Shown here: in pieces, positions 5,757 to 57,037 of the stretch | How positions within the stretch are numbered: position 1 is the first letter of the stretch | Layout of the letters: every line of letters starts with the position of its first letter | Source of the DNA: Octopus sinensis | Lineage: Eukaryota | Reading direction: 5' to 3' | DNA: 64,000 nt | Assembly: GCF_006345805.1 (NCBI RefSeq) | Contig: NC_043011.1 | Location: 49,798,464-49,862,463, forward strand | Notes under the pieces: generated by a model | What the model saw: only the letters and a program-made list of their open reading frames with translations | Databases searched by the model: none | Told to the model about the DNA's origin: nothing | Program-made: the position numbers and the translations under genes

Positions 5757-6661
5757 TACGAGGTGGGTGCTGAAATGTTCGTGGCTTAGGATAAAAGTTG
5801 GCGAGCTGGCAGAAACGTTTGCACGCCGGGCGAAATGCTTAACGGTATTTCGTCTGGAGAGGAGACAAACAATGACAGTCAGACGGATTAAGTGGATTAT
5901 ATCGATCCCCAGTGCGTAACTGGTACTTATTTAATCGACCCCGAAAGGATGAAAGGCAAAGTCGACCTCGGCGGAATTCGGCGGAATTCGAACTGCCGTT
6001 CTCAGTTCGAATTCCGCCGAGGTCGATAAATTAAGTACCAGTTACGCACTGGGGTCGATGTAATCGACTTAATACCTATTTCTGTCCTTGTTTGTCCCCT
6101 CTGTGTTTAGCCCCTTGTGGGTAATAAAGAAATAGGAAATAGGTATTTCGTCTGCCGTTACGTTCTGAGTTCAAATTCCACCAAGGTCGACTTTGCCTTT
6201 CATTCTTTCGGGGTCGATTAAATAAGTACCAGTTACGCACTGGGGTCGATATAATCCACTTAATCCGTCTGTCTGTCCTTGTTTGTCTCCTCTGTGTTTA
6301 GCCCCTAGTGGGTAGTAAAGAAATAGGTATTTCGTCTGCCGTTACGTTCTGAGTTCAAATTCCGCCGAGGTCGACTTTGCCTTCCATCCTTTCGGGGTCG
6401 AGTAAATAAGTACCAGTTACGCACTGGGGTCGATGTAATCGACTTAATCTCTTTCTCTGTCCTTGTTTGCACCCTCTATGTTTAGCCCCTTGTGGGCAAT
6501 TAATAAACAAGGATAAAAGAAAATACAGGAGGATCGGTTAATTATGATTTTATTCAACATGTTGCCCTCTCAAATTCACACACTTATTGCAACGGTCGAA
6601 CAGTAACTCGAAGCCCTGTAAAAGAACTCGGTAGGTTGGGTCTCTTTAGCACCCCCTCGTA
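5757..6661. mobile_element. Mariner-type MITE interrupted by a SINE B multimer
   Basis: TA-cgagg.gggtgctgaaa ... tttagcaccccctcg-TA termini; body homologous to 34206-34426. Confidence 0.7.
5798..6509 (+). mobile_element. SINE family B complex: head, inverted body, three tandem bodies
   Basis: Head ggcgagctggcagaaacg; inverted body ~5858-5990; bodies to 6505; TSD aggataaaag at 5788-5797 and 6510-6519. Confidence 0.85.
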
Positions 6662-6944: not shown

Positions 6945-6992
<48 letters not shown>

Positions 6993-6993
<1 letters not shown>

Positions 6994-7885
6994 TAAGCAA
7001 TAAAGGGTTTAGCAACGAATTGCCTTACCACATACCGAATTTAGAAATAGCAGTCAAAGAGTTATAGCTATTTCTTCTACTAAAAAGGGAGATCTCAGTA
7101 AAAACAGCAATTGGAATTTGACTGCTATTTCTAAATTCGGTATGTGGTAAGGCAATTCGTTGCTAAACCCTTTATTGCTTAGTATTACTTAAATTTTCCT
7201 CGAATGAGGCTTTTACATGCCGAAGACTACTTGGTGTAATTGATAATTATTCTAAATTAATTAATTTCACCCTTCATTATTACGGATAACCATATTTTAT
7301 CTCAGTAGATGACCACAGCATCTTGTTTTGGCTACACGCGGGTGGAAAGGGCTGGTGACACAATCTTTTCATTCACACTTTGAATTTAGTGATACTAGTT
7401 GCGGATTCTAGCTCGCTCTGATACTGAGTTGATTGGTGCCTTCTAGTATCTCAAAATTCAATATATAATCATTTATGATTATAGTATTCTACGCTGAAGA
7501 GAAAAGAAGTTTGGTAAGGTAGAATTATTTAATATTAATTCTTATGCTTTCCTAAAAACTTGATTTCGAAACGTGCGTCCGTAGATAACTTAAAATTGTA
7601 TGATAGATTGCCGTCAATCATTCTCTCTTACCTGTTTGTGTCTGCCTTCCAATTGCTGTTTTTACTGAGATCTCCCTCTTTAGTAGAAGAAATAGCTATA
7701 ACTCTTTGACTGCTATTTCTGAATTCGGTATGTGGTAAGGCAATTCGTTGCTAAACCCTTATTGCTTAGTATTACTTAAATTTCCTAATTTTCCGAATGA
7801 GGCTTTTACATGCCGAAGACTACTTGGTGTAATTGATAATTATTCCAAATTAATTAATTTCACCCTTCATTATTACGGATAACTA
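6993..7885 (+). mobile_element. Non-autonomous Penelope-type element: 5' inverted arm, direct pseudo-LTR-like repeats, HHR
   Basis: 6993-7116 is the reverse complement of ~7648-7772; 7117-7290 repeats at ~7705-7882; (TA)n on both sides. Confidence 0.8.
7488..7585 (+). ncRNA. Type I hammerhead ribozyme, intact core, long stem II
   Basis: tctacg-CTGAAGA-gaaa...tttc-GAAA-cgtgcg-TC-cgtaga; predicted cleavage after C7579 (GUC). Confidence 0.85.
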
Positions 7886-7952
7886 TATATATATATATAT
7901 ATATACAAATTTTTTGTATCTAGTCCTGGAAATTATATTTGTATGCGACAGA

Positions 7953-8027
7953 CTATGCTGATGAGCTTGCAGGTTTCCACGTAGCCATATGCGTGGATAT
8001 TGACAAGCGAAACTGATAGGTACACAG
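7953..8027 (+). ncRNA. Type I hammerhead ribozyme in a separate short element (~7905-8270)
   Basis: ctatg-CTGATGA-gcttg...tccacgta-gcca-tatgcgtgga...caagc-GAAA-ctgatagg-TA-cacag; one mismatch in stem I. Confidence 0.75.
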
Positions 8028-8564
8028 GTGTTCGTTATTATTTCGTATATTTTCATTTGTCTTGCTTATTTTTACGCTTTGGTTTATGCTGAGATTTTAT
8101 TTGAGAACAAATTCTTCGTGGAAAATAGCGATTTCGACGTCTATATCTAGCATGTTGACCGTCCACTGTTAGTGGTCAGTCCTTTAAAATTTGTATGTAG
8201 GATGTTTTTAATATGCTAGGACACTGGTTTTAATTGATTAATATCTATTTCTACCCTTATTCAATTTTATATATATTACATATAATATATATATATACAT
8301 ATATATTTATACATATACATATATTCATGTTTATATATATAAATATATACATATATATATATATTAACATATGTGTGTATCTTTCTACCTGTGTTTGTCA
8401 CTCAGCTTCCACTGGTTGACAGACTATTGGTTTGTTTACGTCATTCTTATTATTCAGTATATGTATATTTATATGTATATATCCTTCACTCTCTCTCCCT
8501 TCTTCTCTCTCTCCCTCTCCCCTCTCTCTCTCTCCTCTGTATATATATATATATATATATATAT

Positions 8565-8942
8565 AGGCGCAGGAGTGGTTGTGTAGCAAGTAGCTTGCTT
8601 ACCAACCACATGGCTCCGGGTTCAGTTCCACTGCGTGGCACTTTGGGCCAACAAAAGCTTTCTGAGTGGATTTGGTAAAACGGAAAATGAAAGAATCCCG
8701 TTGTATATTTGCATATATGTATATATATGTGTATATCTGTGTCTCTTCCCCCAACATCGCTTGACAACCGATGCTGGTGTGTTTACGTCCCCGTAACTTG
8801 GCGGTTCGGCAAAACCGACCGATAGAAGGAGTACTAGTCTTACAAAGAATAAGTCCTGGGGTCGATTTGCTCGACTAAAGGCGGTGCTCCAGCATGGCCG
8901 CAGTCAAATGACTGAAACAAGTAAAAGTAAAAGTAAGTAAAA
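8565..8942 (+). mobile_element. tRNA-derived SINE family A
   Basis: A/B-box-like head, internal (TA)/(TG) tract, 3' end ...gtcaaatgactgaaacaag(taaaag)n. Confidence 0.9.
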
Positions 8943-9001
8943 GCAATATATAGTTAGATAGATAGATAGATAGACACATACATACAATCATACATATATA
9001 T

Positions 9002-9400
9002 ACTCTTTTACTCTTTTACTTGTTTCAGTCATTTGACTTCGGCCATACTGGAGCACCGCCTTTAGTCGAGCAAATCGACCCCAGGACTTATTCTTTGTTA
9101 GGCCTGTACTTATTCTATCGGTCTCTTTTGCCGAACCGCAAGGTGACGGGGACGTAAACACACCAGCATCGGTTGTCAAGCAATGCTAGGGGGACAAACA
9201 TACACACACACACATATATTATATATACATACATATATACGACGGGCTTCTTTCAGTTTCCGTCTACCAAATCCACTCACAAGGCTTTGGTTGGCCCGAG
9301 GCTATAGTTGAAGACACTATCCCCAAGATGCCACGCAGTGGGACTGAACTCGGAACCATGTGGTTGGTAAGCAAGCTACTTACCACACAGCCACTCCTAT
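9002..9400 (-). mobile_element. SINE family A
   Basis: Reverse complement of the preceding copy. Confidence 0.9.
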
Positions 9401-9843
9401 GAATACATACTTACACACACACTCACGCACACACACATGCAGTTTAGATACAGTATATTGTGCGGTTTGTAAATATATATTTTCTCTTGCATTCGTTTCA
9501 GGCATTGGATCGTGGCCATGCTGGTTCGTTATCGTATTTCACAAACACTGTAAGCACACACCGTAATATATAAATTTACCTGACATGTTGGTTATAACTT
9601 TCATTCTATATAAGGAAAACTCAAAAAGAAAACGAAAAAGCCATAAAATATACTAAATTAGTATATTCTAAAACATTAATTGGAATTATAATTACTTGAT
9701 ATCTGATATGGAAATGTAAGCATGGTAATGAAACTTAAGTATAGATGATAAATATACAAAAAAAGCAGAAACGGTCTTTTAAAATTAAAATAATGGTATG
9801 ACAGTATAAGTATGTATGGTGATGTTTTATACATTACATACTT

Positions 9844-31161: not shown

Positions 31162-31578
31162 TGGCGGCGAGCTGGCATAGACGTTAGCGCCCCGGGCGAA
31201 ATGCTTAGCGGTATTTCGTCTGACGTTACGTTCTGAGTTCAAATTCCGCCGAGGTCGACTTTGCCTTTCATCCTCTCGGGGTCGATAAATTAAGTACCAG
31301 TTAAGCACTGGGGTCGATGTAATCGACTTAATACCTATGTCTGTCCTTGTTTGTCCCCTCTGTGTTTAGCCCCCTGTGGGTAATAAAGAAATAGGTATTT
31401 CGTCTGACGTTACGTTCTGAGTTCAAATTCCACCGAGGTAGACTTTGCCTTTCATCCTTTCGGGGTCGATAAATAAAGTACCAGTTTCGCACTGGGGTCG
31501 ATGTAATCGACTTAATCCCTTTGTCTGTCCTTGTTTGTCCTCTCTGTGTTTAGCCCCTTGTGGGTAGTAAAGAAATAT
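31162..31578 (+). mobile_element. SINE family B dimer
   Basis: Head plus two bodies; TSD attatccattac at 31149-31160 and 31581-31592. Confidence 0.9.
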
Positions 31579-55510: not shown

Positions 55511-56692
55511 ATTTTGAAATAATGATATTAATGCCATTTTTGAGAGATTACTGAGAGACACTGTACATTTTCACTCGGTCCAAACCTTCCCGTTTACCCC
55601 TATATTTTCCATCATATTACAGTATCTCTATGCTATTTTAGGGGTCTTACACTCACACGGACTTCAAACGGTATCTATTTTATTGCCTTTAAATTTGACC
55701 CTTTAGACCCTTATGATTTTGCAACCCAGCTTCTCCTTCTCTCTGCTGCTATTTCATTTTGAAATAATGAAATTAATGCCATTTTTGAGAGATTACTGAG
55801 AGACACTCTACATTTTCACTCGGTCCAAAACTTCACGTTTACCCTATATTTTCCATCATATTACAGTATCTCTATGCTATTTTAGGGGTCTTACACTCAC
55901 ACGGACTTCAAACGGTATCTATTTTATTGCCTATAAAATTGACCCTTTAAACCCTTATGATTTTGCCACCCAGCTTCTCCTTCTCCCTTGAAATTAATGC
56001 CATTTTTGAGAGATTTCTGAGAGACACTGTACATTTTCACTCGGTCCAAACCTTCACATTTACCCTATATTTTCCATCATTTTACAGTATCCCTATGCTA
56101 TTTTACAGGTCTTACACTCACACGGACTTCAAACGGTATCTATTTTATTGCCTTTAAATTTGACCCTTTAGGCCCTTATGATTTTGCAACCCAGCTTCTC
56201 CTTCTCCTTCTCCTTGCCACTATTTCATTTTGAAATAATGAAATTAATGCCATTTTTGAGAGATTACTGAGAGACACTGTACATTTTCACTCGGTCCAAA
56301 CCCCCCGTTTACCCCTATATTTTCTATCATATTACAGTATCCCTATGTTATTTTAGGGGTCTTACTCTCACATGGACTTCAAACGGTATCTATTTTATTA
56401 CCTTTAAATTTGACCCTTTAGACCCTTATGATTTTGCAACCCAGCTTCTCCTTCTCCCTTGAAATTAATGCCATTTTTGAGAGATTTCTGAGAGACACTG
56501 TATATTTTCACTCGGTCCAAACCTTCACATTTACCCTATATTTTCCATCATATTACAGTATCCCTATGCTATTTTAGGGGTCCTACACTCACACGGACTT
56601 CAAACGGTATCTATTTTATTGCCTATAAATTTGACCCTTTAGACCCTTATGATTTTGCCACCCAGCTTCTCCTTCTCCCTGCCACTATTTCA
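55511..56692. repeat. Tandem array of five 221-250-bp units
   Basis: attaatgccatttttgagag at 55527, 55772, 55993, 56243, 56464. Confidence 0.95.
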
Positions 56693-57037
56693 TAAGTCCC
56701 TATTTGATATCTACGTAATATTGATTTACGCTTAATGGGACAACAATCTGAGATAACATCATGAGACATGATGAGATACCCGGTTGGACAGATTGTTTTA
56801 ATTACTGTGCAATATAAATAGAGACATTGGGAGGTAAGGGGTACGCTGTTATATAAGCAATTAATTAAAAAACTTGAAAGCAAACAAACGGCGAATGACC
56901 GATTACTTTCTATCCGTGTGTGTGTGTGGTGCACCTGAGCGTGCGTTTCTGTGTGTTTCTGTCTGTCTTCAGGAACTACGATATGTCTCCTTAGGAAGAG
57001 GCTTAAAATTAAGCAGGAATTTATATATTTTTACGCG

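What the first reader, a model, noticed from the sequence alone, without database searches (positions are those of the whole stretch)
6993..7885. Near-intact retrozyme-like unit (~590-bp period) with a long-stem-II hammerhead
Seen: an inverted arm, near-identical direct repeats about 590 bp apart, no ORF, and an intact HHR whose stem II extends into a ~65-nt irregular hairpin (aagttt/aaactt, agaatta/taattct). Inference: the partial tandem is what reverse transcription of a ~590-nt circular or multimeric RNA would leave; high repeat identity suggests a recent insertion.
Basis: partly seen in the sequence, partly recalled or inferred. Interest (0 to 1): 0.75.

Follow-up and report, generated by a model that had tools for sequence, protein, structure and literature searches.

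The report
Two-armed hammerhead retrozyme in TA repeats
This is one copy of a young, protein-free repeat with a predicted self-cutting RNA motif, found at hundreds of TA microsatellites in this animal genome and often as two back-to-back arms that begin at two fixed points and frequently stop at the same point, likely because a borrowed Penelope-type enzyme copies one RNA from both cut DNA ends.

Summary
Observation confirmed. 6993-7885 is one insertion of a young, ORF-less ~593-nt repeat with a type I hammerhead (67-nt stem II, compensatory changes, self-complementary loop III). It is a non-LTR retrozyme (non-autonomous Penelope-like element); circles and cleavage are untested. Corrections: 3' ends are not permuted but fixed at two sites ~103 nt apart (A, B); the inverted arm is likely a second cDNA; this copy has one hammerhead and cannot itself release a circle. 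Two-armed copies pair one A with one B end (35 of the first 40 B ends, no B+B), and 23 of 51 junctions have both arms stopping within 10 nt of the same template position (permutation maximum 11). Best model: a Penelope RT-endonuclease primes both cut TA ends on one RNA, probably a circle. No coding driver found in 114 loci.

The parts
6948..6992 (.). (TA)n target microsatellite, left
   Evidence: same flank type at nearly all copies
6993..7116 (-). Inverted arm (arm A): outer end at initiation site A (unit ~66-69), runs back across the unit junction to unit ~533-536
7117..7704 (+). One full unit, 588 nt (593 in most copies), no ORF, 34% GC; first part of arm B
7488..7585 (+). Type I hammerhead ribozyme motif: stem I 6 bp, CUGAAGA, 67-nt stem II, GAAA, 2-bp stem III with self-complementary loop, predicted cleavage after C7579
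   Evidence: cleavage not tested
7705..7885 (+). Partial second unit (unit 1 to ~176-179), outer end at initiation site B; 7773-7885 is the ~103-nt A-to-B 'tail' present at this end only
7886..7906 (.). (TA)n target microsatellite, right

Best explanation
This is one insertion of a young, protein-free 593-nt tandem repeat with a conserved hammerhead motif (a non-LTR retrozyme), likely pasted into a TA microsatellite by a borrowed Penelope-type reverse transcriptase-endonuclease that primed both cut DNA ends on one RNA. Shown: family, TA target, two fixed 3' ends (A, B), one A plus one B end in two-armed copies, frequent shared stopping point, same haplotype in all units and both arms, ribozyme covariation. 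Inferred: multi-unit loci are transcribed on the + strand; two neighbouring units pair their self-complementary loop III and cut as a double hammerhead; monomers are ligated to circles; the enzyme cuts (TA)n on both strands; one 3' end primes at A, the other at B, 103 nt downstream; both cDNAs run along the same RNA, round the circle if they last; their 3' ends are joined head to head, often at a short palindrome. Here arm A ran 124 nt and arm B about 770 nt.
For: Ends: exact A end + TA 491 times, exact B end + TA 307 times, reversed controls 0. First 40 B ends in genome order: 35 A+B, 4 alone, 1 at an N gap, 0 B+B; 27 stretches picked by an A end: 14 A+B, 11 alone, 1 other, 1 apparent A+A that is an internally duplicated A+B. 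50 long loci: 20 of 22 two-armed are A+B, 27 of 28 one-armed end at A. Both sites are true RNA start points: short copies exist in which each arm holds sequence absent from the other (e.g. L233, L241, L274, L291). Shared stop: 23 of 51 junctions within 10 nt, 31 within 25 nt; permutation mean 3.4, maximum 11 in 20,000; equal arm length in only 4. One template: units within a locus differ 0.42% (49 pairs) against 1.1% between loci (2,031 pairs); 8 of 31 multi-segment loci carry a locus-private substitution in every covering unit; arms agree at all 7 diagnostic sites they cover in 15 of 17 informative loci. 140 of 144 passes over the cleavage site have no indel. Ribozyme; loop III 8-mer self-complementary in 78 of 80 parsed sequences, in four spellings; + strand circle folds at -145 kcal/mol against -115 +/- 5.5 for 30 shuffles. 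Known biology: a Penelope-clade protein cuts and extends both strands of AT-rich DNA, starts internally at two sites and is a predicted dimer (PMC11167929); inverted copies with a tail at one end and (TA)n bias are PLE hallmarks (PMC8557442). Young coding RT+GIY-YIG elements with TA ends and their own ~33-nt tail exist in this genome.
Against: No coding element sharing sequence with the unit was found in 114 GIY-YIG loci (79, 15 and 20), out of thousands of candidates. Circles, cleavage and transcription are not shown. Shared stops fall to 1 of 20 among long copies, this one included. Four loci carry a private change in only some units, which a single monomer circle does not explain. 6 of 18 loci with stops in unit 440-516 stop at 468-475, just behind the cleavage site (hand count, post hoc p 0.008), so some templates were cut and linear. 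A sister 558-nt family has the same end region, tandems and two-armed copies but no canonical hammerhead core.
Confidence: 0.62

Rival explanations
1. Same element and enzyme, but the template is an uncleaved linear multimer transcript (or cut monomers joined by template jumps); no circle is needed and the ribozyme only trims transcripts.
For: In vitro a Penelope-clade protein used unprocessed RNA and ribozyme mutants inserted as well (PMC11167929); 8 of 9 Xenopus retrozyme dimers did not cleave (bioRxiv 2026.07.22.740005). Partly shared variants in 4 loci; stops behind the cleavage site; sister family without hammerhead core.
Against: Private substitutions fixed in all units of 8 loci need a monomer bottleneck; single arms of 7 to 11 units pass many intact ribozymes; no unit-specific substitution is shared in register between the arms of the 7+3-unit locus L186.
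Confidence: 0.22
2. The second arm is not a second primed cDNA but a fold-back copy: one cDNA snaps back at a short palindrome and copies itself until it is joined to the other target end.
For: Many junctions are near-perfect hairpins centred on AATT, TA, TTAA or a 2-8 nt loop; palindromic junctions were read as self-priming in rotifer Penelope (PMC3846280).
Against: In 17 of 51 junctions arm A reaches more than 25 nt beyond arm B and in several each arm has sequence the other lacks; A-only and B-only copies exist. Fold-back can explain at most the co-terminal half.
Confidence: 0.12
3. A satellite or the 3' end of a long coding Penelope element, amplified at DNA level.
For: Arrays of 11 and ~20 units exist; satellite-type expansion is proposed for vertebrate retrozymes.
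Against: Dispersed on many contigs, ends fixed against TA, no upstream element DNA in any fetched copy; the 11-unit array itself has a B end, an A end and TA flanks.
Confidence: 0.04

Closest known systems
Metazoan non-LTR retrozymes (Cervera and de la Pena 2020, PMC7229834: passages and parts 3-4 of 6 read; Li, Clavereau and Pollet, bioRxiv 10.64898/2026.07.22.740005: parts 1-3 of 5 read)
   Same: Tandem non-coding units with one type I hammerhead each, GC below 45%, weak stem III with palindromic loop that works as a dimer, self-paired predicted circle, coexistence with PLEs.
   Different: Unit 593 nt (170-400 nt in the 2020 RNAs; 51-972 in the 2026 survey); 67-nt stem II; the text read describes no TA targeting, fixed two-site ends or two-armed insertions; circles and cleavage shown there, untested here.
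EN+ Penelope-like elements (Craig et al. 2021, PMC8557442: passages and supplement rows; Frangieh et al. 2024, PMC11167929: parts 1-2 of 4; Arkhipova et al. 2013, PMC3846280: passages)
   Same: Partial tandems, 5' truncation, inverted copy at the 5' side, tail at one end only, (TA)n bias, internal initiation at two sites, palindromes at inverted junctions.
   Different: No RT or endonuclease; the tail is ~103 nt, not 30-40; no shared sequence with any coding PLE sampled.
Non-autonomous Chlamys PLEs such as MRC1 (passage in PMC8557442)
   Same: Non-coding, multicopy head-to-tail insertions mobilised in trans.
   Different: Those generally resemble their coding partner at the 3' end and lack canonical hammerheads; here a hammerhead is present and no partner was found.
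LINE-1 twin priming (recalled, no call)
   Same: Both target ends primed on one RNA, giving an inverted 5' part joined by microhomology.
   Different: Here both priming sites are fixed internal points, the arms overlap in sequence and often end at the same base; in LINE-1 they abut.

Membership tests
Non-LTR retrozyme | Type I hammerhead in each unit | tested here: met
   (74 of 88 distinct sequences with intact core)
Non-LTR retrozyme | Head-to-tail units of constant short period | tested here: met
   593 and ~600-nt units, up to ~20 per array
Non-LTR retrozyme | No coding capacity, no LTR-type structure, low GC | tested here: met
   longest ATG frame 30-36 aa, GC 34%; PBS and PPT not searched
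Non-LTR retrozyme | At least two consecutive hammerhead units at the locus (Li et al. criterion for an active element) | tested here: not met
   one hammerhead in this copy; met by other loci of the family
Non-LTR retrozyme | Self-cleavage of the RNA | not testable with these tools
   predicted from motif and covariation only
Non-LTR retrozyme | Expressed as circular RNA | not testable with these tools
   only contigs of runs not on record as RNA were available
Penelope-like element, autonomous | RT plus GIY-YIG ORF | tested here: not met
Penelope-like element, non-autonomous | Partial tandem and inverted 5' copy, tail at one end, microsatellite target | tested here: met
Penelope-like element, non-autonomous | Terminal sequence shared with a coding PLE | tested here: inconclusive
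   none in 114 loci from about a dozen GIY-YIG groups; thousands of candidates unscored; Hydra and Naiad clades not sampled
Penelope-like element, non-autonomous | Target-site duplication | tested here: inconclusive
   cannot be read inside (TA)n

The most novel reading that the evidence does not exclude
The family records in hundreds of genomic copies that a Penelope enzyme dimer copies a single ribozyme-made RNA circle with two reverse transcriptases running one behind the other from sites 103 nt apart, the rear one catching up with the stalled front one, which would explain in one mechanism the inverted pseudo-LTR, the one-sided tail and the junction palindrome of Penelope-like elements and show how retrozyme circles return to DNA.
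Probability: 0.35. Interest if true: 0.72.

Novelty: new member of a known kind. Interest (0 to 1): 0.5.

Why it matters
Mobilisation of animal retrozymes by Penelope-like elements is a hypothesis in the papers read, and the origin of the inverted repeat and one-sided tail of Penelope insertions is open. This family gives a short, young, high-copy substrate with countable footprints (two fixed starts, A+B pairing, shared stops) that make clear predictions for an in vitro reaction. The single copy at 6993-7885 is itself an ordinary dead-end insertion.

Tried and rejected
Rfam: no hammerhead match; none for the sister family either. Expression: no RNA holder listed; contigs of three runs guessed to be RNA cover the unit but cannot show strand, ends, level or circles, and no silent-stretch control was laid; counted as no evidence. 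A loose end from one such contig was not found in the genome. Driver hunt: Pfam GIY-YIG and three own-protein searches, then BLAST and an end-region profile over 114 loci gave only separate retrozyme insertions near PLEs (L103, L122, L207, L217, L299, L300). Four short unit motifs are absent from the cephalopod Hydra and Naiad entries of the PMC8557442 supplement (one chance hit in a slime mould element), and one degenerate Hydra RT motif found nothing; Hydra-clade drivers therefore remain unsampled. A 98-nt DNA query returned nothing because common words are skipped; one pattern was mis-spaced. First pair count used a mis-registered structure (corrected in 61-62). Unit splitting failed for most loci; only L186 and C10637 were usable. 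'Rear enzyme never passes the front one' holds in the unbiased sample (A further 17, B further 3) but reverses among long copies (B further 13, A further 4), so it is not a rule. Equal arm length (two RNAs copied for equal time) rejected: 4 of 51. Insertion polymorphism and genic context were not tested. One duplicate locus (C12611 = C12618) was left out of the 50.

Full report
Observation. Between two TA tracts lie an inverted arm (6993-7116, 123 of 124 bases matching the unit end plus start), a 588-nt unit (7117-7704) and a partial repeat (7705-7885; 168 matches, 2 substitutions, 3 gap events). The circularised unit has no ATG frame above 30 aa. A type I hammerhead sits at 7488-7585 on the + strand with a 67-nt stem II and a two-pair stem III. 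Rfam does not detect it and the local fold alone is not significant (z -1.7), so the case rests on comparison.

Family. The window's genome (2.72 Gb; it looks octopus-like to me from recalled repeat types, not tested) gave 1,374 first-look candidates, 40 scored, at about 98% identity. An exact 28-nt pattern for the ribozyme's 3' half occurs 2,180 times, control 0. Copies range from 22-nt fragments to arrays of about 20 units of 593 or ~600 nt. None of 50 long loci or 67 further stretches continues into other element DNA; PLE protein hits near four loci lie outside the insertions. Two older sister families share the end region: one of ~603 nt with a homologous hammerhead, one of 558 nt without a canonical core.

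Ribozyme. Across 10 representatives 7 of 32 pairs change on both sides, in stem I, the base of stem II and its extension; 0 of 500 shuffles and no slid register reach this (related sequences can exceed such shuffles, so this is support, not a probability). The eight bases over stem III are self-complementary in 78 of 80 parsed sequences, spelled with TA, TG or CG in the middle (8 of 88 not parsed), as expected for two units pairing into a double hammerhead, the mode shown for axolotl retrozymes (PMC7229834). The + strand circle folds at -145 kcal/mol against -115 +/- 5.5 for 30 shuffles; the - strand at -125. This copy has one hammerhead, so it cannot release a monomer by itself.

Ends. In unit coordinates (cleavage after 467) 3' ends cluster at site A (59-80, mostly 69) and site B (164-179), directly against TA; 5' ends are scattered. 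Exact A+TA and B+TA joints occur 491 and 307 times. Of the first 40 B ends in genome order, 35 have an inverted A arm, 4 stand alone, 1 meets an N gap, none pairs with B. Of 27 stretches picked by an A end not already paired, 14 are A+B, 11 alone, 1 other, and 1 apparent A+A is an internally duplicated A+B. Among 50 long loci, 20 of 22 two-armed copies are A+B and 27 of 28 one-armed copies end at A. The window copy is A (6993) plus B (7885). In the older 603-nt family a few B-only copies and one B+B copy were seen. The pattern matches the Penelope 'tail at one end of an inverted copy' (PMC8557442; PMC3846280) and the two internal start sites measured in vitro (PMC11167929), with a tail of ~103 nt instead of 30-40.

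Junctions. In the unbiased sample 23 of 51 A+B junctions have both arms stopping within 10 nt of the same template position and 31 within 25 nt; shuffling arms between loci gives 3.4 on average and at most 11 in 20,000 rounds; equal arm length is seen 4 times. Many junctions are hairpins centred on short palindromes. Among long copies, this one included, shared stops are rare (1 of 20). Of the 20 unbiased junctions that differ by more than 25 nt, arm A reaches further in 17, but among long copies arm B does in 13 of 17. Short copies in which each arm holds sequence the other lacks show that both A and B are start points on RNA, which limits the fold-back rival to the co-terminal cases.

Template. 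Units differ 0.42% within a locus and 1.1% between loci. Eight of 31 multi-segment loci carry a substitution seen in no other sampled locus in every unit that covers it, one of them in 8 segments across both arms; four loci carry such a change in only some units. Arms agree in haplotype in 15 of 17 informative loci, and 140 of 144 passes over the cleavage site are free of indels. This fits one monomer read round repeatedly, but a homogeneous uncleaved multimer is not excluded. A modest pile-up of stops at 468-475, one locus with both arms ending at 468 (L252), suggests that cut linear RNA was sometimes the template (post hoc).

Driver. The genome holds young RT+GIY-YIG elements with intact 775-883-aa frames, TA ends and their own short tails, so suitable enzymes exist, but none of 114 loci shares sequence with the unit next to its ORF. 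The assignment to Penelope-type enzymes rests on the insertion footprint.

Literature and novelty. Six searches listed no paper on cephalopod retrozymes or on shared stopping points; the 2026 octopus repeat annotation has no occurrence of 'ribozyme' in its main text (PMC13282606, passages). Subscription papers, bioRxiv supplements, Repbase and Dfam were not visible and may hold this family. Earlier notes of this scan describe two-armed retrozymes with two fixed ends in this genome and others, one apparently the 11.8-kb array of this family; they were read after the A+B pattern was found here and are not counted as support. Verdict: a new member of a known kind; the copy is ordinary, the family's footprint makes an open mechanism testable. 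Interest 0.5.

Noticed in passing
window 7953-8027 (+): A second, unrelated hammerhead-like motif (CTGATGA, long stem II, GAAA, GUA triplet, one mismatch in stem I) right of the element, in a ~365-nt older repeat with 69-88% matches in L126 and L168.
   Followed up: partly
L137:1501-2058 and L131-L160: Sister 558-nt tandem family with the same end region and two-armed TA insertions but no CUGAnGA or CCGAnGA core on either strand and no Rfam match; its + strand circle folds at -143 against -107 for the other strand. It may use another ribozyme or none.
   Followed up: partly
L113, L117, L120, L127: Young coding Penelope-like family (98-99% identical copies) with a 479-aa ORF of no Pfam family upstream of a 781-aa RT+GIY-YIG ORF, TA ends and a ~33-nt tail that is the start of the next unit.
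   Followed up: partly
G000:C5:17905255-17917093 (L061-L062): 11.8-kb array of ~20 units of the 600-nt subfamily without standard ends; as similar to the 11-unit array on C27 (0.34%) as to itself.
   Followed up: partly
L186, L034, window: Stem I shows a stepwise change U-A to U-G to C-G across subfamilies.
   Followed up: yes
L116:843-937, L118:6340-6424 and 7002-7228, L115, L127, L158, L168: Several other long-stem-II hammerhead families with self-complementary loop III, some two-armed in TA, and a CCGAAGA-core variant in the 3' end of the L118 coding element.
   Followed up: no
window 5858-6503 and 31210-31577: 184-nt tandem SINE-like repeat with an inverted piece.
   Followed up: no
window 8560-9409: Two nested SINE-like copies in opposite orientation (inverted arms of 207 and 88 nt).
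   Followed up: no
window 55511-56693: Tandem array of 221-250-nt units, 92-96% alike.
   Followed up: no
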